From Bdellovibrionales bacterium (GTDB lineage: Bacteria; Bdellovibrionota; Bdellovibrionia; Bdellovibrionales; UBA1609): DNA of 64,000 nucleotides. Positions 1,328-58,984 of the stretch are shown here, in pieces (position 1 is the stretch's first letter; every line of letters starts with the position of its first letter). The DNA is taken from NCBI GenBank assembly GCA_043764155.1, contig JAYUKW010000033.1, forward strand, positions 6,126 through 70,125. Reading direction: 5' to 3'. The notes under the pieces were generated by a model. The model saw nothing but the letters and a program-made list of their open reading frames with translations. It had not been told where the DNA came from and did not search any database. The position numbers were made by a program, and so were the translations under genes.

Positions 1328-3175
1328 TTAAATATTTAAAGAGTCCAGTTCTTGAACCAAAACTTTTAAATCAGAGTATTTTTGCTGAAGTGCATTTTGC
1401 TTTTGTCCCACAAGTTTATAGTGTTCAGAAATCATCGAGTTTTTATCTTTTGATTCAGATAATAAAATAACTTCTAGTTTTTGATTGTCAGATTCTAGAT
1501 CCTCTTCCATTTTTAAAATTTCAGATTCTAGAACTTCAATACTTTTCTTTATACGATTTGATTTTTTTCGGTCCTCTTGACTTATAGCTACAGAATTTGT
1601 TTTTTGATTTGCAGCTTTAGGTACTGATGAACTTTTTTTCTTTGATGTCAGCGTATCTTCACCCCAACCGACTTTATCTAAAAAGTCTTGATATGTGCCT
1701 GCGAAAAAATGGGCTTTAGGCTCACCCTTACCATTCGGGCTTTCGCACCCTTCACTGCGTGATGGCTCTTTAAAATAAATCAAATGGGTCGCAAGCTTAT
1801 GTAAAAGTCCCTCGTGGTGAGTTACAAAAACGACGGGGCCTTCAAATTTATTGACCTCGTCCCCTAATCTTTCAACAGCGTCTCTGTCCAAATGGTTAGA
1901 TGGTTCATCTAGTAGTAAACAGTTGTTCGGGTAAGCTAGAATTTTTCCAAGTAAGACTCTGGCTTGTTCGCCCCCAGATAAGACTCCGATTTTTTTTAAA
2001 GCCTCGTCCCCTGGAAACATCATGGCTCCGCAGATCCCACGTACTTGTGTGATTGTGAGCAAAGGATTGGTCTGGGCGATCTCGTCAACTATAGTTGATT
2101 TTAGATTTAAATCTTTCTTATTGGTTTGATGATAAAATCCAATTTTAGTTTGAGGATGGACCCAAACTTCATCTTTTTTATTTGTAAGCTCTTGGGCCAA
2201 TTGTCTTAAGAGAGTGGTTTTACCTTTTCCGTTTTGTCCGACAATGGCGATTCGATCTGTCGGAGTTAATTCAAAAGATAAGTTTTCATAAAGGTATTCA
2301 CCTGGGGTGTAACCAAAACTTAAATTTTCAGCCTTGAGCAAACGTTTTGCTGGTGTTGGCAAATATGAAAATTTAAATCCAAGACTATTTTCGGCATCTT
2401 TTAATTCTATAATTTCAATCTTATCAATGGCTTTCATTTTAGATTGAGCTTGGGCCGCTTTGGACGCCTTGGCCCTGAAGCGTTCCACAAACTTTTCCAT
2501 CTCTTTAATTTTTTGATCTTGGTTGGCTTTACTTTTAACTAAAATTTCATATTCAAGCTTCACTTGATCGTAGTATTTTTGGGAAGGTCCTTTAATTTTT
2601 TTGGCTTCTGTTTGATAGATTCCCAACGTGTGAGTGATCACATGATCCATAAAATACTGATCATGTGTAATCAAAATCACTTCACCTGGATAACTTAATA
2701 AATAATCTTTAAGCCAACGTAAACTTAAAAGATCAAGATAGTTTGTTGGTTCATCCAGGATTAATAAATCTGGTTCTTGTAAAATACATTTAGCTAAGTT
2801 AATTCGAAGTTGGTAACCCCCAGAAAAACTAAGGGGGGACTTCTGCATGCCCTCAAGACTGAAACCTAAGCCTTGCAAAATTCTTTCAGCTTTATAGTGC
2901 TCGTAAACTTCTAAACCGTCACAGCACTCTTCAAGCACTGTGGCTTTATCAAATTCTAAATGCTGGGACAAATATCCTACACGGTACCCCTTAGGAAAAA
3001 CCACTTTGCCCGAATCCGCTTGAAGTTCGCCAATAATGATCTTTAAAAGTGTGGTCTTGCCGCAACCATTTCGACCCACAAGGCCTAAGCGTTCGCCTTT
3101 TGACATTGTAAACGAAAGGTCTTCAAACAGGATTTTACCTGGATAGGTTTTTTCTAAATTAGTCACCGAAATCAT
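1328..3175 (-). CDS. ABC-F family ATPase (two ABC domains, C-terminal coiled coil)
   Basis: Two Walker A loops (GRNGCGKTT, GQNGKGKTT), two signature motifs (FSGGYQ, LSGGEQ) and Walker B LILDEPTN/LLLDEPSN. No transmembrane domain. K/E-rich C-terminal tail. Confidence 0.9.
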   Translation of the reverse strand: MISVTNLEKTYPGKILFEDLSFTMSKGERLGLVGRNGCGKTTLLKIIIGELQADSGKVVFPKGYRVGYLSQHLEFDKATVLEECCDGLEVYEHYKAERILQGLGFSLEGMQKSPLSFSGGYQLRINLAKCILQEPDLLILDEPTNYLDLLSLRWLKDYLLSYPGEVILITHDQYFMDHVITHTLGIYQTEAKKIKGPSQKYYDQVKLEYEILVKSKANQDQKIKEMEKFVERFRAKASKAAQAQSKMKAIDKIEIIELKDAENSLGFKFSYLPTPAKRLLKAENLSFGYTPGEYLYENLSFELTPTDRIAIVGQNGKGKTTLLRQLAQELTNKKDEVWVHPQTKIGFYHQTNKKDLNLKSTIVDEIAQTNPLLTITQVRGICGAMMFPGDEALKKIGVLSGGEQARVLLGKILAYPNNCLLLDEPSNHLDRDAVERLGDEVNKFEGPVVFVTHHEGLLHKLATHLIYFKEPSRSEGCESPNGKGEPKAHFFAGTYQDFLDKVGWGEDTLTSKKKSSSVPKAANQKTNSVAISQEDRKKSNRIKKSIEVLESEILKMEEDLESDNQKLEVILLSESKDKNSMISEHYKLVGQKQNALQQKYSDLKVLVQELDSLNI

Positions 3176-12802: not shown

Positions 12803-12813
12803 TTTTATAATAT

Positions 12814-12884
12814 TTAGTCAAGACCATTATGGATTATAATCCATAATGGTCTTGACTAAACTAGATTATAATCCATAATGGTCT
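12814..12884. repeat. 46-bp perfect palindrome plus a third copy of its 20-bp half-site, abutting the ATPase start codon
   Basis: TTAGTCAAGACCATTATGGATTAT / ATAATCCATAATGGTCTTGACTAA spans 12814-12859. GATTATAATCCATAATGGTCT is repeated directly at 12832-12852 and 12864-12884. The ATG of the next gene is at 12886. Confidence 0.85.
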
Positions 12885-31108: not shown

Positions 31109-31232
31109 CATCCAACTAGCGTCAATCTGCCCGAAGAGGTCATCACCCGGCCTAAAGGCGTTAGCTTTGGAGATGGAAGTTCCATATCAAACCCTTATGC
31201 GTAAATTCATTATAGAGGGGCTTACTAAAAGA
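31109..31232 (+). pseudogene. frameshifted remnant of a second brnA-like antitoxin gene
   Basis: It aligns by eye with intact brnA (32418-32540): CATCCAAC.AG.GT.AATCT.CC.GAAGA.GT.ATCAC...GTTCC.TATCAAACCCTTATGCGTAAATT.ATTAT.GA.GG.CTTAC.AAAAGA. One extra base near 31147 breaks the frame. There is no 5' part and no brnT partner. Confidence 0.6.
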
Positions 31233-31241
31233 ATTGATAAA

Positions 31242-31589
31242 CTATAGATCCAAGAAATCTTTAACGGTTAATTTAGTTTTCTCTTGGATAGCTTCTGGAA
31301 TTTCACCTAAGTCGGTCCGAAAAAGGGAATTATCCCAAGCTAAGATTTGATCGACAATAATTTCTGACTCTTTATCTAAACCGCATATATTTTTAGGTAA
31401 CTTAATTCTAAAAGGAAAATTTTCTTCTTTAAAAATATTGCTAGTTATTGGTAAAATAACTGAAGACTTTAAGCCAGCATCAGATATTTCTGTAGGTTGA
31501 ATACATAAGTATGGACGCTATTTTCCAGGCTTAGTCCCAACCCTTGGTTTTAGATCAACTACATAAATATGCCATCTTTTTGGTATCAT
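31242..31589 (-). pseudogene. mazF: mazF/pemK-like toxin gene with a single in-frame amber codon
   Basis: Own translation gives MIPKRWHIYVVDLKPRVGTKPGK*RPYLCIQPTEISDAGLKSSVILPITSNIF...EIIVDQILAWDNSLF...KDFLDL*. There are 115 codons, with TAG at codon 24 (complement of 31518-31520). No intact antitoxin ORF lies upstream. Confidence 0.75.
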
Positions 31590-31789
31590 CAAAGGCCTTT
31601 AAATCTTTTTGAATTTAAGGAAAATTCTTTTTGAGTTTTGCTAGAGCTTTCCGAAACGACCTTGGCATTTTTTTTCCAGCGCGCTATTCGTGCACTTTTC
31701 TCGACTTCAAATTCTAAAAGCACAAGTGCTTATGAATAAGGGGCTTTTTTTACATTCTAACGACTTATTTAACTAGGATTACATGTATT

Positions 31790-31938
31790 GATGTTGAGAT
31801 TAATACTGCCATAAATAAGAAAAATAAGACCCAAAAATAAAGCGCCTAGGCACCCTGGATAAATTCCACAAAGAATGTTTATCGATCACGTGGGACTTAA
31901 CCAATCTAAACTTGCGCATCACTTGGGATGGACGCCAG
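31790..31938 (+). pseudogene. decayed higB(3' end)-higA(5' part) remnant, copy 1
   Basis: 31845-31938 is identical to 32702-32795. Upstream, GATGTTGAGATTAATACTGCCATAAATAA is a degraded version of GATGTCGAAATCACAGATTATCATAAATAA. It carries the same in-frame TAA after HPG as copy 2. Confidence 0.55.
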
Positions 31939-31955
31939 GAAAAATAAATATAGAC

Positions 31956-31975
31956 ATAGTGTAATATAGTGTAAT
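31956..31975. promoter_or_regulatory. tandem 10-bp repeat upstream of brnT (possible promoter/operator)
   Basis: ATAGTGTAAT occurs twice, 15 nt upstream of the brnT ATG, and contains TAATAT -10-like hexamers. Confidence 0.3.
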
Positions 31976-31990
31976 ATATTTAACTTTAAT

Positions 31991-32335
31991 ATGGCAAATT
32001 TTAGATTTATTCATTGGTTAGCTGATTGGATTGAAAGTCAGACATATTTTGTTTTCGAATGGGATCTGGGTAATCGCACAAAGAATTTAACTAAACATGG
32101 AATTACTGTTGATGACGCAGAATCTGTATTTAACCAGTTAGAATCTATTAGAGCTCTTGGTGAACAAATTAGCCCCACTGTAAATGAACCTAGATATGGA
32201 ATTCTTGGTTTAACAGATAATTTAAATCATGTGTTTATATGCTTTACTATACGTGGTTCTGGAATCCGTATTATCCACATTAGAAAAATGAACAAAAAAG
32301 AAAGAGGTTTATATGCCAAATTATGTGAAGAATGA
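31991..32335 (+). CDS. brnT: BrnT toxin (DUF497 ribonuclease)
   Basis: 114 aa. FEWDLGNRTKNLTKHGITVDDAESVF...EPRYGILG...VFICFTIRGSGIRIIHIRKMNKKERGLY matches the DUF497 pattern. Overlaps brnA by 23 nt. Confidence 0.85.
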   Translation: MANFRFIHWLADWIESQTYFVFEWDLGNRTKNLTKHGITVDDAESVFNQLESIRALGEQISPTVNEPRYGILGLTDNLNHVFICFTIRGSGIRIIHIRKMNKKERGLYAKLCEE

Positions 32336-32549
32336 AAAAGGTTACGCCAACATTAAGTTCAATGCTAAGGCCGTCAAAGATGCATATTCCAAGGCTAAAA
32401 CTAAGCGCAAGCATCCAACCAGTGTTAATCTACCTGAAGAAGTTATCACAGCCCTAAAGGCTTTAGCTTTAAAGATGGACGTTCCGTATCAAACCCTTAT
32501 GCGTAAATTTATTATCGAAGGTCTTACCAAAAGAAAACGGAGCGCTTGA
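32313..32549 (+). CDS. brnA: BrnA antitoxin (CopG/RHH-like)
   Basis: 78 aa. ..TSVNLPEEVITALKALALKMDVPYQTLMRKFIIEGL.. is the typical BrnA C-terminal pattern. Confidence 0.8.
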   Translation: MPNYVKNEKGYANIKFNAKAVKDAYSKAKTKRKHPTSVNLPEEVITALKALALKMDVPYQTLMRKFIIEGLTKRKRSA

Positions 32550-32590
32550 GCTAGCTGGTGATCATCTTTTAAATTTAAGCATTAAATTAG

Positions 32591-32668
32591 CTCGATCAAT
32601 GGCGAATTATTTTTAAATGGGACGGAACAAATTCCATAGATGTCGAAATCACAGATTATCATAAATAA
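32591..32668 (+). pseudogene. 3' remnant of a plasmid-killer-type higB (PF05015-like) toxin gene
   Basis: The frame reads LDQWRIIFKWDGTNSIDVEITDYHK*, matching the conserved C-terminus of HigB killer proteins (..QWRI.F.W..G....V.I.DYH). The 5' two-thirds of the gene are missing. Confidence 0.65.
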
Positions 32669-32680
32669 GGAGAATTAAAG

Positions 32681-32836
32681 ATGAGACCAAAAAATAGAGC
32701 ACCTAGGCACCCTGGATAAATTCCACAAAGAATGTTTATCGATCACGTGGGACTTAACCAATCTAAACTTGCGCATCACTTGGGATGGACGCCAGCAGAA
32801 CAAACTCATAAGAAAATTCATGCTATTAGTGCCTAA
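32681..32836 (+). pseudogene. truncated higA-like HTH antitoxin gene with an in-frame TAA, copy 2
   Basis: MRPKNRAPRHPG*IPQRMFIDHVGLNQSKLAHHLGWTPAEQTHKKIHAISA*. The HPGE(I/L)L motif is interrupted by TAA at 32717-32719. The ORF is about half normal HigA length. Confidence 0.6.
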
Positions 32837-49604: not shown

Positions 49605-49675
49605 AAGGTGCCAGGTTCCGTTTGGGAATTAAACCACTTGTATTTGTTTAATTCCCAAACGGAACCTGGCACCTT
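49605..49675. repeat. perfect palindrome (30-bp arms, 11-nt loop) with GTGCCAGGTTC termini, exactly filling the gap between two convergent stop codons
   Basis: AAGGTGCCAGGTTCCGTTTGGGAATTAAAC (49605-49634) pairs with GTTTAATTCCCAAACGGAACCTGGCACCTT (49646-49675). It starts 1 nt after the TAG of the MAPEG gene and overlaps the TAA of the LLM gene by 2 nt. Confidence 0.9.
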
Positions 49676-51093: not shown

Positions 51094-51654
51094 TTGGATT
51101 TCAGAAACAAAAAACCGACGAAATATTTATGGTTAGATATGGAAATGACAGGCCTTGATGTCCAAAAAGAAAGAATCATTGAAGTCGCTGCCATCATCAC
51201 CGACACCGATTTAAATGAAATCAGCAATTATCACGCGGTGATTTTTCAAGATCATGAATTTATTGAACGTATGGACGACTGGAATCAAAAACAGCACAAG
51301 GCCACTGGTCTAATTAAATTGATTCCTGATGGCAAAAAGCAAGACGTAGTTGAAAGCGAACTCATGGCCTGGATTAACACACACTACAATGAAGAACTGC
51401 CGATTTTAGCAGGAAATAGTATCGCTCAAGATAAACTTTTTATTGATTTTCATATGCCTAAACTTAAAGAGGCTCTTCATTACCGAATGTTAGATGTCAC
51501 ATCTTGGAAGATTCCATTTTGGATTAAAGGAATTGAAATGAAAAAGAAAAATGTCCACCGCGCCGTCGACGACATCAGAGAAAGTATCAAAGAATTTAGA
51601 ACTTATTTAAAGTTCGTGGATTTCAACACCCCTGTGGATTACAAAAAAAAATAA
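51094..51654 (+). CDS. orn: oligoribonuclease
   Basis: LWLDMEMTGLD, IIEVAAIITD, AGNSIAQDKLFI and HRAVDDIRESIKE align with E. coli Orn DEDDh motifs. TTG start per the track. The last 8 codons lie inside the palindrome at 51631-51895. Confidence 0.9.
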   Translation: MDFRNKKPTKYLWLDMEMTGLDVQKERIIEVAAIITDTDLNEISNYHAVIFQDHEFIERMDDWNQKQHKATGLIKLIPDGKKQDVVESELMAWINTHYNEELPILAGNSIAQDKLFIDFHMPKLKEALHYRMLDVTSWKIPFWIKGIEMKKKNVHRAVDDIRESIKEFRTYLKFVDFNTPVDYKKK

Positions 51655-51895
51655 CAAAAGAATTAAGCTATAAATCTATTTCATAATTAGTTTCCATTCT
51701 GTATTTTAAAACAGGCTCGTTGGCATGAAGCTTTGATGCTGGAAAAGTTCCAGCGAACATCGCAGCTGTGAGTGAACTTGACAGCTCTGCAAAGCGAGTG
51801 ACAAGGCTTCGCCTGTTTTAAAATACAGAATGGAAACTAATTATGAAATAGATTTATAGCTTAATTCTTTTGTTATTTTTTTTGTAATCCACAGG
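51631..51895. repeat. 265-bp palindromic element: 85/84-bp arms around a 96-nt conserved core
   Basis: Arms 51631-51715 and 51812-51895 are reverse complements except for an A9 versus T8 run. The core contains GGCTCGTTGGCATGAAGCTTTG (51714-51735) and TGCAAAGCGAGTGACAAGG (51788-51806), which are also present at 57951-57972 and 58047-58065. Confidence 0.9.
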
Positions 51896-51919
51896 AGCGT
51901 TTCAAGTCCATTTAAACGG

Positions 51920-51947
51920 GTTTAATTCTCAAACGGAACCTGGCACT
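51920..51947. repeat. solo half-site of the GTGCCAGGTTC palindrome family, 2 nt after the ahcY stop codon
   Basis: GTTTAATTCTCAAACGGAACCTGGCACT differs at 2 positions from the right arm at 49646-49673. No inverted partner was seen nearby. Confidence 0.8.
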
Positions 51948-51949
51948 TT

Positions 51950-53356
51950 TTAGTATCTATAATGATCTGGCTTAAATGGTCCAACTTGATCAAGACTTAA
52001 ATACTTAGACTGCTTATCTGAAAGCTGAGTCAATTTGGCCCCAACTTTATCTAAGTGGAGAGCTGCTACTTTTTCGTCTAAATGCTTAGGAAGTCTATAA
52101 ACACCGATCTTATAATTTTTTGTGTTTTTATAAAGTTCTAACTGAGCCATAACTTGATTTGTGAAAGACGCGCTCATCACAAAAGATGGATGCCCGGTTG
52201 CGCAACCTAAATTAACTAAACGACCCTTAGCTAAAACAATAACTTTTTTACCATTCTTCATTTCGTGAATATCAACCTGAGGCTTTATTTCTGTCATTTT
52301 AGAATTGGCGTTTAACCACTTCATATCAATCTCAATATCAAAGTGACCAATGTTACAAACGATAGCGCCATCTTTCATTTTTTCGAAATGCTTTTGAGTG
52401 ATGATGTCACAGCATCCAGTGGCCGTTACAAAGATATCTGCTTGTGATGCGGCGTCATCCATTGTGACGACCTGATATCCTTCCATAGCCGCCTGTAAGG
52501 CACAAATAGGATCAACTTCAGTCACTAATATTCTAGCCCCAAGACCTTTTAAAGATCCAACAGAGCCTTTACCAACATCTCCGTACCCTGCAACAACAAC
52601 AATTTTACCGGCTATCATCACATCGGTCGCGCGTTTTAAAGCGTCGACTAAAGATTCGCGACAACCATATAAATTATCAAATTTTGTTTTAGTAACAGAA
52701 TCATTCACGTTAATTGCAGGAATTTTTAATTTTCCTTCTTCAAGCATTTTATATAAGTGATGAACACCAGTCGTAGTTTCTTCTGTCACACCGATTATTT
52801 TCTTTAAAGCGTCTGCAAAACGAGGTTCATGCATCATGTTGGTTAAATCACCACCATCGTCTAAAAGCATGTTCGCACCTTCATCATTCCATCCTAAAAT
52901 GGTCTGTTCAACGCACCAGTTGTACTCTTCTTCAGTTTCGCCCTTCCAAGCATAAATCGGAACACCAGCCGCAACCATGGCAACAGCCGCATGATCTTGA
53001 GTGGAATAAATATTACATGAACTCCAACGTACTTTTGCACCCAAATCCACAAGGGTTTCAATCAACACGGCCGTCTGAATTGTCATATGAATACAACCAG
53101 TGATTCGAGCGCCCTTTAAAGGAAATTGACCTTTGTACTCTTGTCTTAATGACATCAGACCTGGCATTTCACTTTCAGCGATTTGGATTTCTGCACGACC
53201 CCAACGAGCCAATTCATCAAACTTCTTTGGATCTTCCATAGCTTCTTTGCAAACTCTAAAGTCGACCATTTTATTTGCTAAAGTTAATTTTTTAGCCACC
53301 ATATTGTTGGAAGTTAAATTTGACTTCGTGTTGGACGCAGCACTCATATCTTGCAT
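51950..53356 (-). CDS. ahcY: adenosylhomocysteinase
   Basis: 468 aa. [14 protein letters not shown], the NAD-binding [10 protein letters not shown] and GHFDIEID signatures. Ends ...PDHYRY. Confidence 0.95.
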
Positions 53357-54382: not shown

Positions 54383-54814
54383 CTATTTTAAGTGACCGCT
54401 TACAATTTTAGTCATTTCAAACATAGAAACTTGTTTTTTACCAAAGATTGGCATTAATTTGTCATCAGCATTGATGTTTCTTCTGTTCTGAGCATCTTGA
54501 AGATTGTTCTTCTTGATATAAGCCCAAAGTTTCTTAACAACTTCTGTTCTTGGAAGTGGTGCTGCACCGACAACCTGAGCTAAGGCTGGACTTGGCATTA
54601 ACGCTTTCATGAACGCTGCATTTGGCTTTCTTTTTGTTTTAGCTTTTGGAGCTGCTGCTTTTTTTGGAGCCGCTTTTTTAGCTGGAGTAGCTTTTTTTGC
54701 TACTGCTTTTTTCGCTGCAGGTTTTTTTGCTGCTGCTTTTGGTTTTGCTTTAACTACTTTCTTCTTAGTTGTTTTCTTTGCTGCTTTTTTCGCTGCTTTC
54801 TTTTTTGTCGCCAT
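54383..54814 (-). CDS. SWIB/MDM2-domain protein with an N-terminal histone H1-like K/A/P-rich tail
   Basis: Residues 1-65 are AKKAAKK/PAAKKA repeats. The C-terminal ..LAQVVGAAPLPRTEVVKKLWAYIKKNNLQDAQNRRNINADDKLMPIFGKKQVSMFEMTKIVSGHL is a SWIB fold signature. Confidence 0.85.
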   Translation of the reverse strand: MATKKKAAKKAAKKTTKKKVVKAKPKAAAKKPAAKKAVAKKATPAKKAAPKKAAAPKAKTKRKPNAAFMKALMPSPALAQVVGAAPLPRTEVVKKLWAYIKKNNLQDAQNRRNINADDKLMPIFGKKQVSMFEMTKIVSGHLK

Positions 54815-54886: not shown

Positions 54887-56566
54887 TTAATTTGAAATTT
54901 TTCTATATTGGATTCTCTTCGGTTGTAAATCATCAACTCCAAGTCGTTTTTTTAAATCTTCTTCGTACTCAGAATAACTTCCTGGGAAAAATTCAATATG
55001 ACTGTTTCCTTCGAAAGCCATGGTGTGAGTACAAACCCTGTCGAGGAACCATCTGTCGTGACTGATCACAAGAACGCAACCACCAAAAGATTCAATCGCT
55101 TCTTCTAAAGCGCGCATAGTATTCACATCCAAGTCATTAGTCGGCTCATCGAGTAAAATAACGTTGGCGCCCTCAGCTAAAAGCTTCGCTAATTGCACAC
55201 GATTGCGTTCGCCACCCGATAAATTGCCAACTTTCTTCTGTTGATCTGATCCAGAAAAGTTAAATTTAGAGACATAAGCTCTGGAATTCATCTCTTTTCC
55301 ACCGACATTCATCAAATCTTCACCACCAGAAATTTCTTCCCACACAGTTTTTTCAGCATTTAAATTATCTCTAGACTGATCCACGTAAGCCAACTTTACT
55401 GTTTCGCCGACTTGTAATTCACCCGAATCTGGCTTTTCTTGACCCACGATCATTCTAAATAAAGATGTTTTTCCTGCTCCGTTAGGGCCGACAATTCCGA
55501 CAACACCACCGGCTGGAATATCAAAACTTAAATTTTCAAATAAAATTTTATCCCCGTAACGCTTAGAAATATTTTTGGCTTCAACCACTTTCTTACCTAA
55601 TCTTGGACCTGGCGGAATATAAAGTTGAAGTTCTGCTAATTTTTCCTTCGAAGGCTCTTTAAGCATCATTTCATAGTTAGACACACGGGCTTTTGCTTTC
55701 GCTTGTCGACCTTTAGGGTTCGTTCGAATCCATTCTAATTCTTTTTCTAAAGTTTTATTTCTTGTCGCTTCAGTTTTGGATTCTAACTGCATACGTTTGT
55801 TTTTTTGATCCAACCAAGACGAATAATTACCTTTAAATGGAATTCCTTCGCCGCGGTCCAATTCTAAAATCCAACCGGCTACATTATCTAGAAAGTATCT
55901 ATCATGGGTGACAGCAATCACAGTTCCTGGAAATTTCGCCAAATAATGTTCCAACCAAGTTACCGATTCGGCGTCCAAATGGTTGGTAGGTTCATCCAGT
56001 AATAAAATATCAGGCTGTGAGAGTAATAGTCGGGCTAAAGCGACACGACGTTTTTCTCCACCAGATAATTTATCAACTGACGCTTCACCAGGAGGACATC
56101 TTAAGGCTTCAACAGCCATGCTGATCGTCTGATCCACATCCCATCCATTAACGGATTCAATCTTTTCTTGAATCTCGCCCTGCTTTTCAATCAGCTTATC
56201 CATGGCTTCTGGAGTGATATTTTCGTCACACATCTTTTCACTTAAGGAATTGAATTCTTTTAACCAAACAGGTAATTCGCCCATTCCGTCCAGAATATTT
56301 TCATGAACAGTTTTTTCAGGATTTAATTCTGGCTCTTGTTCTAAGTAACCTAATTTAAAATCGCGAGCTGGAAAAGATTCACCTAAAAAATCTTGATCAA
56401 TTCCTGCCATTATTTTTAAAAGTGTACTTTTACCTGAACCGTTTAAACCCAAAACCCCAATCTTTGCGCCGTAAAAGTAAGAAAGATAAATATTTTTTAA
56501 AATATATTTTGTCGGTGGTATCACTTTACTGACACCTTTCATTGTATAGATGATCTCTTCAGCCAT
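54887..56566 (-). CDS. ettA: energy-dependent translational throttle protein EttA (ABC-F)
   Basis: 559 aa. N-terminus AEEIIYTMKGVSKVIPP.KYILKNIYLSYFYGAKIGVLGLNGSGKSTLL, two ABC modules, C-terminus ..PKRIQYRKI. Confidence 0.95.
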   Translation of the reverse strand: MAEEIIYTMKGVSKVIPPTKYILKNIYLSYFYGAKIGVLGLNGSGKSTLLKIMAGIDQDFLGESFPARDFKLGYLEQEPELNPEKTVHENILDGMGELPVWLKEFNSLSEKMCDENITPEAMDKLIEKQGEIQEKIESVNGWDVDQTISMAVEALRCPPGEASVDKLSGGEKRRVALARLLLSQPDILLLDEPTNHLDAESVTWLEHYLAKFPGTVIAVTHDRYFLDNVAGWILELDRGEGIPFKGNYSSWLDQKNKRMQLESKTEATRNKTLEKELEWIRTNPKGRQAKAKARVSNYEMMLKEPSKEKLAELQLYIPPGPRLGKKVVEAKNISKRYGDKILFENLSFDIPAGGVVGIVGPNGAGKTSLFRMIVGQEKPDSGELQVGETVKLAYVDQSRDNLNAEKTVWEEISGGEDLMNVGGKEMNSRAYVSKFNFSGSDQQKKVGNLSGGERNRVQLAKLLAEGANVILLDEPTNDLDVNTMRALEEAIESFGGCVLVISHDRWFLDRVCTHTMAFEGNSHIEFFPGSYSEYEEDLKKRLGVDDLQPKRIQYRKISN

Positions 56567-57817: not shown

Positions 57818-58199
57818 AGTGCCAGGTTCTTTTTTGTAATTTAAATGACCTTATGATCTTAAAAGTGGGACAGACCTTGTCATTCGCCTTGCAATTCGAG
57901 AGCTACAAAAATTTAGTTTATTTTAAAGATCCTTTAGAGCATTTAAAATAGGCTCGTTGGCATGAAGCTTTGCTGCTGTCTAGTTCGTTTGCTGGCATTC
58001 GAGGGGCTACGCACCCTCGCCAGCTCACTGGAACTTTTCCAGCATTTGCAAAGCGAATGACAAGGTCTGCCCTGTTTTAAATGCTCTAAAGGATCTTTAA
58101 AATAAACTAAATTTTTGTAGCTCTCGAGCAAGGCTTCATGCCAACGAGCCCACTTTTAAGTTCATAAGGTCATTTAAATTACAAAAAGAACCTGGCACT
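57818..58199. repeat. 382-bp composite palindromic element (outer GTGCCAGGTTC arms, inner 53-bp perfect arms, conserved core, interleaved P/Q boxes)
   Basis: Outer arms 57818-57869 / 58149-58199 (50/52). Inner arms 57896-57948 / 58075-58127 (53/53). P 57871-57893 versus P' 58047-58069 (22/23). Q 57951-57972 versus Q' 58128-58150 (22/23). Confidence 0.9.
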
Positions 58200-58207
58200 G
58201 GGTGGAT

Positions 58208-58984
58208 CTAGATCAGTTCGTAGAGGACGGTCATTGCTAATGTGAAAGTGATTAACGTAAGGCTTATGATACGGATTTGATGCAGGTTTTTATTATTTAA
58301 AATTTTACCAACGTAAGATCCTCCGATGATCCCAATAATCATCAGCAAAAACGAATCAAAACCTACTTTGTTGTAAAACTCGCTCAGTAAATTCAAATCA
58401 AATAGAAAGGCTGAAATAAAAACACCTAAACATACAAAAATCATCATGGCGTTGACAGTTGGGGCTTCTTCTTTAGGAGATATATTTTTGTTATTTAATA
58501 CCAGCCAATTTAAGAAGACTCCGCTCCCAACGCCAGCAAATCCAGAAAGAAGACCGGCTATAACACCTAGTTTGTGAGGCGGTAAATTAGCCAGATAATT
58601 TTTCTTATTTTTGCTTTCTAAATTTCTAGCCATTAGTTTTAAGACCGTATTTAAAAAACTAAAACTCATTAAAATTAAAAACAACACAAGAAAAACTCTT
58701 AAATAGTCTCCGTCAACTTGCTTCGCTATTAAAGAACCTATTAAACCGCCAATCACAATAAACGGCGCCATCTGGAGCACCAAAGGCCAAACAATTTTTT
58801 TTTGAAATTGATATTGAACTGTATTAATAGTCACAGATATAAATACAAAAGTTAAACTTAAGACAATGGCCTGATAGGGGGTCAAATCATAAATTTTAGG
58901 TAATAAGGGAACTAAAAAAATTCCTCCACCAATTCCCAAAAAAGAAGAGACAAAGCCAAGGGCCAATCCTAAAAATAAACTCAT
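58208..58984 (-). CDS. TauE/SafE-family anion (sulfite) exporter
   Basis: 258 aa with about 8 TM helices. G-rich motifs (LGIGGGIFLVPLL, GFAGVGSGVFL) are typical of TauE/SafE. Confidence 0.75.
   Translation of the reverse strand: MSLFLGLALGFVSSFLGIGGGIFLVPLLPKIYDLTPYQAIVLSLTFVFISVTINTVQYQFQKKIVWPLVLQMAPFIVIGGLIGSLIAKQVDGDYLRVFLVLFLILMSFSFLNTVLKLMARNLESKNKKNYLANLPPHKLGVIAGLLSGFAGVGSGVFLNWLVLNNKNISPKEEAPTVNAMMIFVCLGVFISAFLFDLNLLSEFYNKVGFDSFLLMIIGIIGGSYVGKILNNKNLHQIRIISLTLITFTLAMTVLYELI

What the first reader, a model, noticed from the sequence alone, without database searches (positions are those of the whole stretch)
51631..51895. 265-bp palindrome whose 85-bp arm encodes the last 7 codons and the stop codon of orn
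- The left arm (51631-51715) and right arm (51812-51895) are exact reverse complements apart from an A9 versus T8 run. They enclose a 96-nt core.
- The left arm begins at the Pro codon of ...NTPVDYKKK*. The orn C-terminus and TAA (51652-51654) are therefore part of the repeat and are mirrored, non-coding, at 51872-51895.
- Compared with E. coli Orn (which ends ..YYREHFIKL, from memory), this Orn has roughly 10 extra C-terminal residues. That is consistent with the ORF now reading into an inserted or fold-back-duplicated element.
- The arms are unrelated in sequence to the inner arms of the 57.8-kb element, yet the cores are homologous, including the arm-core junctions ATTT(T)AAAA(C/T)AGGCTCG and CCTGTTTTAAA.
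- The pattern is the same core with different, perfectly paired, locus-specific arms. This suggests a mechanism that copies flanking DNA in inverted orientation, or strong selection for a long hairpin.
Basis: partly seen in the sequence, partly recalled or inferred. Interest (0 to 1): 0.7.

Follow-up and report, generated by a model that had tools for sequence, protein, structure and literature searches.

The report
Self-copying hairpin repeat beside orn
The 265-bp palindrome is real and belongs to a rare repeat family whose two short boxes are conserved while its long stems differ between copies; the outer end of its right stem is a mirror copy of the end of the neighbouring orn gene, so the palindrome was built or extended by copying DNA back on itself.

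Summary
Arms 51631-51715 and 51812-51895 are perfect apart from an A9/T8 run. They enclose a 94-96-nt core, and the left arm holds the last 7 orn codons plus TAA.

The reading that orn now runs into an inserted element is refuted. Orthologues at 73-82% identity end in the same tail, and four orthologous loci have no palindrome. The right-arm end (51872-51895) is therefore an inverted copy of ancestral orn sequence.

The core is a 23-nt X box and a 27-nt Y' box. It occurs 3 times in the window and in 7 loci (6 distinct elements) of one other genome among 185,579 species. It always sits inside long, copy-specific palindromes, usually as two nested modules of opposite polarity.

Between copies, X is 100% identical and the stems about 53%. 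Within a copy the stems pair 253/261 Watson-Crick with no G-T, which points to DNA-templated copying rather than RNA selection.

In 7 of 7 cases a gene 3' end lies on the X side. In three cases outgroups show that the mirrored coding sequence is ancestral.

Best explanation: a fold-back repeat element whose stems are rewritten and extended by intrastrand template switching. The function of the boxes is unknown.

The parts
51094..51654 (+). orn (oligoribonuclease, RNase_T domain). The public gene call starts at 51145 (169 aa).
   Evidence: ORF. 100% match to P0001 with PF00929. The C-terminal tail is conserved in orthologues.
51631..51713 (+). X-side (left) arm of element E1. 51631-51654 is the last 7 orn codons plus TAA (ancestral). 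51655-51713 is non-coding.
51714..51736 (+). X box of E1 (GGCTCGTTGGCATGAAGCTTTGA)
   Evidence: The first 18 nt are identical in all window and MAG copies of the inner X box.
51737..51786 (+). Variable centre ('mid') of E1, with two small hairpins. It is inverted relative to the mid of the inner module at 57974-58045.
   Evidence: inverted alignment scores 35 with 0/2000 shuffles reaching it; same orientation scores 17.
51787..51813 (+). Y' box of E1 (CTGCAAAGCGAGTGACAAGGCTTCGCC). It faces X as an imperfect helix.
51814..51895 (+). Y'-side (right) arm of E1. 51872-51895 is the non-coding mirror copy of the orn 3' end (ttaTTTTTTTTgtaatccacagg).
51896..51918 (+). Stretch with weak, decayed continuation of the mirror of orn coding sequence.
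   Evidence: 28/2000 shuffles reach the score. Suggestive only.
51919..51949 (+). Half copy of the 'P-family' palindrome (GTTTAATTCTCAAACGGAACCTGGCAC) abutting the ahcY stop codon. It has no partner arm.
   Evidence: (D8, I5). A test for a remnant of the missing arm was not significant.
51950..53356 (-). ahcY (adenosylhomocysteinase), convergent with orn.
   Evidence: PF05221, PF00670.
57818..58199 (.). Element E2, a nested double element.
- P-like ends: 57818-57829 / 58188-58199.
- Outer arms: 57831-57869 / 58149-58187.
- Outer Y box: 57868-57894.
- Inner arms: 57896-57950 / 58073-58127.
- Inner X: 57951-57973.
- Mid: 57974-58045.
- Inner Y': 58046-58072.
- Outer X on the minus strand: 58128-58150.
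   Evidence: (I2, I4, I7, I8).
58208..58984 (-). TauE-family gene. Its 3' end lies 57 nt from the outer X box of E2, on the same strand.
49605..49675 (.). Complete P-family palindrome (30-nt perfect arms, 11-nt loop). It fills the spacer between the stop codons of two convergent genes. It is context, not part of E1.
   Evidence: (I6).

Best explanation
E1 is one copy of a rare family of hairpin-forming repeat elements, found so far in two Bdellovibrionales-like genomes.

**What is constant.** A 23-nt X box and a 27-nt Y' box always face each other as the same imperfect helix:
- 7-10 bp (GCTTTGC/GCAAAGC);
- a 3x3 GAA/GAA loop;
- 7 bp with a G-A mismatch;
- a 3-nt bulge;
- GGC/GCC.

The boxes surround a variable centre. 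Most copies carry two such modules nested in opposite polarity. E1 carries one.

**What varies.** The long stems outside the boxes are not a fixed part of the element. They are kept strictly Watson-Crick, and extended outwards, by DNA-level intrastrand templating. A nascent or broken 3' end folds back at the X:Y' quasi-palindrome and copies its own strand. The Y'-side arm is thereby written from the X-side arm. The palindrome has in this way spread over the end of orn, which lies on the X side, leaving a non-coding mirror of PVDYKKK* at 51872-51895.

**Shown:**
- the palindrome itself;
- family membership;
- ancestry of the gene tails, and therefore the direction of copying;
- strict Watson-Crick stems without G-T pairs;
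- the X-side rule.

**Inferred:**
- the polymerase-level mechanism (template switch or snap-back);
- that the copying is recurrent rather than a single event;
- that the boxes are a recognition site, in folded DNA or RNA, for an unidentified protein;
- that on transcripts the hairpin serves as the 3'-end structure of the upstream gene.
For: 1. **The element is a repeat, not a local oddity.** The 18-mer of X occurs 3 times in the window. It occurs in 7 loci of one Bdellovibrionales MAG (9 matches; L013 and L023 are the same element at two contig ends, so 6 distinct elements), out of 185,579 species genomes. All MAG copies have the layout outer arm - Y - inner arm - X - mid - Y' - inner arm' - X' - outer arm'.
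2. **Gene tails are ancestral, so the mirror is the copy.**
   - orn.
   - MAG OMP-like gene..INAGIQFEF* is conserved in 18 homologues, and the sites are empty in L046 (92% identity) and L047/L048.
   - Second MAG gene..YLGYQxxF* is conserved, and the orthologous convergent genes overlap by 4 nt in L057.
3. **Stems are copy-specific but paired.** Identity between copies: X 100%, Y' 96%, mid 66%, inner arms 53%. Within copies 253/261 arm cells are Watson-Crick, 0 are G-T and 8 are other. 41 of 83 pairs show double-sided changes and almost none show one-sided changes. Outer arms of different copies share no homology.
4. **Polarity.** In E1, E2, L008, L011, L013, L026 and L028 the adjacent gene 3' end lies 33-80 nt upstream of the outermost X on the same strand, 7 of 7. 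The ancestral coding sequence is always on the X side.
5. **Identity profile.** Identity is perfect next to the boxes. The flaws are homopolymer slips (A9/T8 in E1, T6/T5 in E2) and mismatches concentrated distally. There are hints of a decayed mirror beyond the boundary.
6. **A known process fits.** Quasipalindrome template switching is an established process in E. coli that makes imperfect inverted repeats more perfect by using the nascent strand as template (PMC7202029).
Against: - No direct evidence for any polymerase step.
- Only about 9 copies were available, and none is orthologous between genomes. Recurrent homogenisation therefore cannot be separated from a single event per copy.
- X and Y' are never homogenised to each other, although the adjoining arms are. 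The copying must be bounded at the box edges for unknown reasons.
- The non-coding part of the arms could not be matched to ancestral spacers. At L026/L057 the ancestral spacer may have been zero, so that part may have arrived with the element.
- The decayed-mirror signal is weak (p about 0.014, 0.07 and 0.15).
- The 100% conservation of X needs a constraint that was not identified.
- No transcript data.
Confidence: 0.5

Rival explanations
1. One-step 'target-site inverted duplication'. The core, or the double core with its own proximal arms, is a mobile unit. At each insertion a 3' end snaps back on X:Y' and copies 40-85 nt of the X-side target flank. This could be done by a DNA polymerase or a reverse transcriptase in target-primed synthesis. 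The arms date from the insertion and are not homogenised later.
For: - Boundaries between perfect arm and unrelated flank are sharp.
- Outer arms are locus-specific.
- The X-side polarity holds in 7 of 7 cases.
- The element is present or absent at non-orthologous sites.
- The convergent genes that flank the L026 element overlap in the relative L057, so all 360 nt look inserted.
Against: - Mids differ by 34% and inner arms by 47% between copies, while arms within a copy are 97-100% paired. Copies look old, yet the arms look young.
- Inner arms have a fixed length and conserved box-proximal ends in two genera, so they are inherited, not made from targets.
- The non-coding arm part does not match relatives' spacers.
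- The length of mirrored coding sequence varies from 3 to 24 nt.
- No transposase or reverse transcriptase partner was found.
Confidence: 0.2
2. The core inserts into the apex of pre-existing long palindromes (terminator or REP-like hairpins, such as the P family). The arms are simply the old palindrome.
For: - The outer ends of E2 are the P-family motif GTGCCAGGTTC/GAACCTGGCAC.
- A core-less P palindrome with 30-nt perfect arms sits at 49605-49675.
- Every double element has one module inside the centre of another, which suggests a preference for hairpin apices.
Against: - Relatives' orthologous sites have no palindrome covering the gene ends. L036 has only a 10-bp hairpin clear of orn. L046 has a 34-nt spacer. 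L057 has overlapping genes.
- The arms of E1 are not P-like.
- This explanation only moves the question of how an 85-nt mirror of a coding 3' end arose.
Confidence: 0.1
3. A structured RNA (3'-UTR element or sRNA) whose long helices are kept by selection on RNA pairing. The arms vary through ordinary compensatory evolution.
For: - The orientation is always sense to the upstream gene (7 of 7).
- The asymmetric internal loop and bulge of X:Y' are conserved.
- Covariation is extensive.
- There is no canonical terminator between orn and ahcY.
Against: - There are 0 G-U pairs in 261 arm cells, and one-sided changes are almost absent.
- An 85-bp perfect helix reaching into a coding region is not what RNA selection produces.
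- No Rfam family reaches its threshold.
- Selection cannot create a 24-nt exact mirror of a pre-existing coding sequence by point mutation.
Confidence: 0.1
4. Assembly, chimera or MDA artefact (fold-back chimera).
For: - Fold-back chimeras do occur in amplified or long-read data.
- One MAG copy is split over two contig ends (L013/L023), showing that assemblers struggle here.
Against: - The palindrome is internal, with unique flanks on both sides.
- Three contigs carry this orn allele.
- The same boxes and architecture recur at 2 loci here and 7 loci in an independent assembly from another study.
- Compensated variation in the boxes cannot be an artefact.
Confidence: 0.03
5. One reading: an element was inserted into, or duplicated at, the end of orn, and the ORF now terminates inside it, giving Orn a new tail.
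For: This Orn is 6-10 residues longer than distant homologues.
Against: The tail and its DNA are present in orthologues that lack the palindrome.
Confidence: 0.02

Closest known systems
MITEs and fold-back elements (e.g. Neisseria Correia elements; from general knowledge)
   Same: - Small, non-coding and multi-copy.
- Present or absent at non-orthologous intergenic sites.
- Form long hairpins, often at gene 3' ends.
- Occur as two end-types in different combinations and as nested copies.
   Different: - No direct target-site duplication.
- The long inverted repeats are not conserved between copies.
- Only two internal boxes are conserved.
- The arms include mirrored local coding sequence.
- No autonomous partner is known.
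REP / BIME / REPIN sequences (from general knowledge)
   Same: - Extragenic palindromic repeats placed just after stop codons.
- Two motif types alternate in orientation.
- Proposed roles in mRNA 3'-end stability and protein binding.
   Different: - REPs are short palindromes of fixed sequence.
- Here the conserved boxes are not themselves palindromic.
- The stems are 40-85 nt and copy-specific.
- No RAYT link was tested.
Quasipalindrome template-switch mutagenesis (Ripley 1982; Lovett laboratory; PMC7202029)
   Same: An imperfect inverted repeat becomes more perfect because the nascent strand is used as template. That gives strictly complementary changes and can extend the identity of the arms.
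   Different: - Known events change a few bases in laboratory reporters.
- Here the outcome would be 40-85-nt arms, maintained family-wide, nucleated by a conserved core, and with a fixed polarity.
Plastid inverted-repeat 'ebb and flow' and arm-to-arm gene conversion in large palindromes (from general knowledge)
   Same: - Repeat arms are kept identical by conversion.
- Boundaries creep into neighbouring genes and leave truncated pseudo-copies at the other boundary.
   Different: - Scale: kilobases against tens of bases.
- Those are single loci, not a dispersed family.
- There is no conserved nucleating core.
Integron attC sites (from general knowledge)
   Same: - Gene-3'-end palindromes that are oriented and variable in sequence but conserved in folded structure.
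- Conserved unpaired bases that are read in folded single-stranded DNA.
   Different: - attC sites have conserved outer core sites and a variable centre. Here it is the reverse.
- There is no integrase or cassette array context.
Coding palindromes in Nematomorpha mitochondrial genes (PMC6649704)
   Same: Long perfect inverted repeats that overlap functional coding sequence.
   Different: - There both arms are coding and sit inside genes.
- Here only one arm overlaps the last codons, and the other arm is non-coding.

Membership tests
MITE | Terminal inverted repeats conserved among copies | tested here: not met
   Outer arms show no homology between copies. Inner arms are about 53% identical. 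Only the internal X and Y' boxes are conserved.
MITE | Direct target-site duplication flanking the element | tested here: not met
   Flanks are inverted, not direct, right up to the boxes and at the outer boundaries.
MITE | Multiple copies with presence/absence at non-orthologous sites | tested here: met
   There are 2 loci in the window and 7 loci (6 distinct elements) in one MAG. Orthologous sites are empty in relatives.
MITE | A related autonomous element with the same ends | not testable with these tools
   Whole genomes of the two hosts could not be scanned. No hit in plasmid, phage or viral collections.
REP/BIME/REPIN | Short (about 20-40 nt) imperfect palindrome of conserved sequence as the repeated unit | tested here: not met
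   X and Y' are not self-complementary. They pair with each other across a 30-75-nt centre.
REP/BIME/REPIN | Association with a RAYT (TnpA-REP) gene in the genome | not tested
   Only 71 kb of the host scaffold and 8-kb pieces of the MAG were available.
Intrinsic (Rho-independent) terminator | Short G+C-rich stem followed by a U tract | tested here: not met
   The scan finds none between orn and ahcY. The stems are A+T-rich and 40-85 bp long.
Any described RNA family (Rfam 15) | Score at or above the family's gathering threshold | tested here: not met
   0 hits at gathering on the whole window. The best E-value hits (AfaR 21.9/100, MIR166 23.3/60 bits) are far below threshold.
tRNA/tmRNA-derived element | ARAGORN-detectable tRNA-like fold | tested here: not met
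   No tRNA or tmRNA in the window.
Integron attC | Conserved outer core sites with a variable centre; integrase and cassette-array context | tested here: not met
   The conserved parts are central and the variable parts are outer. The neighbours are housekeeping genes.
Quasipalindrome template-switch product (a process, not a family) | Derived arm is the exact complement of a pre-existing sequence on the other arm | tested here: met
   Outgroups show that the orn, OMP-like and L026 gene tails are ancestral and that their mirrors are derived.
Quasipalindrome template-switch product (a process, not a family) | Strict Watson-Crick complementarity without wobble intermediates | tested here: met
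   253/261 cells are Watson-Crick, 0 are G-T. One-sided changes are almost absent.
Quasipalindrome template-switch product (a process, not a family) | Direct observation of the switching event, or dependence on replication | not testable with these tools
   This needs an experiment or population sequencing.

The most novel reading that the evidence does not exclude
The X-mid-Y' core is a mobile or self-maintaining DNA element that manufactures its own hairpin arms from whatever lies on its X side. It does so by snap-back synthesis primed from the X:Y' fold. This would be a 'target-site inverted duplication' signature unlike any described bacterial transposition footprint. The process would be recognised or triggered by an unidentified protein that reads the conserved asymmetric X:Y' structure in folded single-stranded nucleic acid.
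Probability: 0.25. Interest if true: 0.85.

Novelty: new variant of a known kind. Interest (0 to 1): 0.62.

Why it matters
Bacterial dispersed repeats are normally recognised by conserved sequence. Here the conserved part is only about 50 nt, and the bulk of each copy is locus-specific yet perfectly self-complementary. Standard repeat finders and family models would miss such elements.

The outgroup comparisons give a rare natural case in which the direction of palindrome formation can be read: ancestral gene end to non-coding mirror. That makes templated palindrome growth in a bacterial chromosome directly testable.

The stems swallow stop codons and the last codons of the upstream gene. They may therefore couple translation termination, mRNA 3'-end formation and decay for the upstream gene.

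The perfectly conserved X box, across two genera, predicts an unknown binding protein.

Tried and rejected
- **Rfam** at gathering and at E-value thresholds on the window, E1 and E2: nothing credible. **ARAGORN**: nothing.
- **Public-collection scans for the boxes.**
  - Genome contigs 18-mer: only one MAG has real copies. The other 26 loci share just the 18-mer and lack the rest of the box.
  - JGI metagenomes with a 21-mer X pattern: 0 hits.
  - JGI metagenomes with a 20-mer Y' pattern: 5 coding chance hits.
  - IMG/VR: 0 hits and 2 chance hits.
  - Plasmids and phages by blastn: none.
- **Origin of the non-coding arm part.** It was tested against the spacers of relatives and found not significant.
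- **Decayed mirror beyond the perfect arms.** E1 p about 0.014, L028 0.07, E2 0.15. Kept only as a hint.
- **Remnant of a missing P-family arm beside E1.** Not significant.
- **Homology among outer arms of different copies.** None beyond chance.
- **Ideas considered by eye and dropped.**
  - Sigma-54 promoter in the boxes (TTGGCAT-N6-TTGC): the spacing is one base too long.
  - Small ORF starting at the ATG in X: length not conserved, and there is an immediate stop in E1.
  - GCGAAGC DNA mini-hairpin in the Y box: present in only some copies.
  - Direct target-site duplication around the core (TTTTAAAA): not general.
- **More of the source scaffold.** A further 7.2 kb was fetched and held no extra core copy.
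- **Closest relative of the L026 gene.** At 91% identity, it lies on a contig that ends 14 nt after the stop, so it was uninformative.
- **Literature searches.** No description of such elements was found.
Full report
**1. The observation**

- The repeat finder reports arms 51644-51716 / 51811-51883, 73 nt, 100% complementary, 94 nt apart. The pairing continues to 51625-51650 / 51876-51901 at 92%.
- Within 51631-51895 the only flaw is A9 (51643-51651) against T8 (51876-51883).
- The orn ORF (51094-51654; the public call starts at 51145) ends ...NTPVDYKKK*. CCT(Pro) is at 51631 and TAA at 51652-51654.
- The region folds at -168.5 kcal/mol against -64 +/- 4.6 for shuffles, z = -22.6.
- It is the longest inverted repeat in the window.
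- No canonical intrinsic terminator lies between the convergent orn and ahcY genes.

**2. The orn tail is ancestral**

- The window comes from metagenome scaffold ERZ28573637 BUSI22-1 scaffold_192.
- Twelve Orn orthologues at 73-82% identity all end F-x-K-x-V-x-Y-x-K-K*. Examples are ..FHKPVDYNKK and ..FKKEVDYKKK. More distant Orn proteins stop 6-10 residues earlier.
- I fetched four orthologous loci (L036, L042, L044, L045). None has a palindrome over the orn stop or any X/Y' box.
- L036 reads cctgtggattacaacaaaaaataa, where the window reads cctgtggattacaaaaaaaaataa.

Orn does not read into an insertion. The consequence is the interesting part: since 51631-51654 is ancestral coding DNA, its exact mirror at 51872-51895 must be the derived copy.

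**3. The core is a repeat family with two conserved boxes**

- The core ends are an X box (GGCTCGTTGGCATGAAGCTTTGC, 23 nt) and a Y' box (TTGCAAAGCGAATGACAAGGCTTCGCC, 27 nt).
- Each occurs three times in the window against about 0.01 expected: once in E1 and twice at 57.8-58.2 kb (E2).
- E2 is nested. An inner module (arms 57896-57950 / 58073-58127, X 57951-57973, Y' 58046-58072) sits inside an outer module of opposite polarity (Y 57868-57894, X on the minus strand 58128-58150, arms 57831-57869 / 58149-58187).
- A scan of one genome per 185,579 species with the 18-mer of X found real copies in only one other genome, a Bdellovibrionales MAG (JANODG01). There are 7 loci and 9 matches; L013 and L023 are the same element at two contig ends, so 6 distinct elements.
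- The remaining 26 loci share only the 18-mer and lack the rest of the box. That is about the number expected by chance for an 18-mer in 596 Gb (my arithmetic).
- JGI metagenomes, IMG/VR, plasmids and phages gave nothing real.
- Every MAG copy has the double layout: outer arm - Y - inner arm (47 nt) - X - mid (about 31 nt) - Y' - inner arm' - X' - outer arm'.
- X and Y are similar but not identical. X therefore always faces Y' with the same flaws: a GAA/GAA internal loop, a G-A mismatch and a 3-nt bulge.
- The middle of E1 is inverted relative to the middle of the E2 inner module. The inverted alignment scores 35 (0/2000 shuffles reach it) against 17 in the same orientation.

**4. Stems: different between copies, perfect within**

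Mean pairwise identity across the six distinct MAG elements:

| Segment | Identity |
|---|---|
| Inner X | 100% |
| Inner Y' | 96% |
| Outer X' | 87% |
| Outer Y | 80% |
| Mid | 66% |
| Inner arms | 53% |

- Outer arms of different copies show no homology beyond chance.
- Within copies the inner arms pair at 253 of 261 cells by Watson-Crick, with 0 G-T and 8 other mismatches.
- RNAalifold finds 83 pairs. 41 show double-sided changes and almost none show one-sided changes.
- A helix kept by RNA-level selection at this divergence would carry G-U pairs. Their complete absence points to complementarity written by a DNA polymerase.
- Compensated changes also occur inside the outer boxes. L014 has GACCTGC/GCAGGTC and L026 has GCCGTGC/GCACGGC.

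**5. Mirrored gene ends are the rule**

- In L028 the outer arm covers ..atccaattcgaattctaa (IQFEF*) of an OMP-like gene, and the other arm mirrors it.
  - The tail ..INAGIQFEF* is conserved in all 18 homologues down to 53% identity.
  - Orthologous sites in L046 (92% identity, 34-nt spacer) and L047/L048 (39-nt spacer) are empty.
- In L026 the arm covers ..ccaagcccgattttaa (QARF*).
  - Homologues end ..YLGYQTRF..YLGYQTQF and ..FGYTAKF.
  - In L057 the two orthologous convergent genes overlap by 4 nt. In the MAG they are 360 nt apart.
- In L011 the arm covers the last codons of a gene ending ..CPHCQK*. In L013 it covers ..RIN*. In L008 it covers the stop codon.

In all seven informative elements (E1, E2, L008, L011, L013, L026, L028) the gene whose 3' end touches the palindrome lies 33-80 nt upstream of the outermost X box on the same strand. 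A two-sided binomial gives p about 0.016 (my arithmetic). The ancestral sequence is on the X side and the mirror on the Y' side. This is what a 3' end that folds back from Y' onto X and copies its own strand would produce.

**6. Mechanism: what is shown and what is inferred**

Shown:
- the direction of copying;
- strict DNA-type complementarity;
- locus-specific outer arms;
- the polarity rule;
- absence of the element from relatives' orthologous sites.

Inferred:
- The X:Y' quasi-palindrome nucleates intrastrand template switching. This is the established process that makes imperfect inverted repeats more perfect by using the nascent strand as template (PMC7202029).
- The Y'-side arm is thereby rewritten from the X-side arm.
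- The palindrome creeps outward until it meets something that cannot be overwritten.

I favour recurrent homogenisation over a single event for two reasons. First, the inner arms have a fixed length and conserved box-proximal ends in two genera, yet are about 47% diverged between copies and 97-100% paired within them. Second, the flaws are recent-looking homopolymer slips (A9/T8 in E1, T6/T5 in E2) and distal mismatches.

A decayed continuation of the mirror beyond the perfect arms is only suggestive, with p about 0.014, 0.07 and 0.15.

**7. Open problems**

- The non-coding part of the arms matches no relative's spacer. At L026/L057 the ancestral spacer may have been nil. That part may therefore have come with the element, which leaves a one-step snap-back at insertion as a live rival.
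- X is never homogenised to Y'.
- The perfect conservation of X demands a constraint, probably a protein reading the folded module. That constraint was not identified.
- No transcript data exist.

**8. Comparison with known systems**

- It behaves like a MITE or fold-back repeat in copy number and presence/absence. It fails the defining tests of conserved terminal repeats and direct target duplications.
- It resembles REP/BIME in position and in alternating motif types, but the repeated unit is not a short palindrome.
- It is not an intrinsic terminator, an Rfam family, a tRNA derivative or an attC site.
- The closest process analogues are quasipalindrome template switching and, on a larger scale, plastid inverted-repeat 'ebb and flow', which leaves truncated gene copies at repeat borders (general knowledge).

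**9. Verdict**

- The 'new Orn tail' reading is wrong.
- The 'copies flanking DNA in inverted orientation' reading is supported and now has a polarity.
- I class it as a new variant of a known kind: a dispersed palindromic repeat combined with template-switch palindromisation. There is a non-excluded, more novel reading, that the core builds its own arms from target DNA.

Noticed in passing
window 49605-49675; 51919-51949; 57818-57829 / 58188-58199; L056 1345-1416 (outside the window): A second palindrome family, 'P' (GGTGCCAGGTTCCG..GAATTAAAC), is placed directly after stop codons. The inner part of the stem differs between copies but is compensated within each copy. One copy fills the whole stop-to-stop spacer of two convergent genes. 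One copy is a lone half next to ahcY. The outer ends of E2 carry the motif.
   Followed up: partly
window 57818-58199: E2 is a double, nested element with the two modules in opposite polarity. All MAG copies share this layout, with fixed 47-nt inner arms and a conserved 3-nt bulge next to the outer Y box.
   Followed up: yes
window 51737-51786 versus 57974-58045: The centre of the core is inverted between E1 and the inner module of E2, although the flanking X and Y' boxes keep their order. This could reflect collapse of a double element or inversion between the boxes.
   Followed up: partly
window 12813-12884: A perfect 48-bp palindrome (TTTAGTCAAGACCATTATGGATTA/TAATCCATAATGGTCTTGACTAAA) is followed by a third copy of the 21-nt half-site. 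It looks like an operator array.
   Followed up: no
window 31151-32800: A toxin-antitoxin-like pair lies at 31991-32549 (DUF497/BrnT-like plus BrnA-like, judged by eye). A degenerate duplicate lies upstream: the 83-nt and 124-nt direct repeats are 88% and 94% identical.
   Followed up: no
window 54625-54807: 15-nt periodic repeats encode a Lys/Ala-rich stretch inside the SWIB-domain ORF (54383-54814, minus strand).
   Followed up: no
window 1328-3175 and 54887-56566: Two ABC-F-type ATPase paralogues share short conserved DNA stretches (family D3).
   Followed up: no
L013 1-250 and L023 1-330: The same MAG element is split across two contig ends, with a few differences between the two versions. 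Assemblers break at these palindromes, so copy numbers in draft genomes are probably underestimated.
   Followed up: partly
L057 2478-2486: In a relative, the two convergent genes that flank the L026 element in the MAG overlap by 4 nt. The whole 360-nt spacer in the MAG, arms included, therefore looks acquired.
   Followed up: partly
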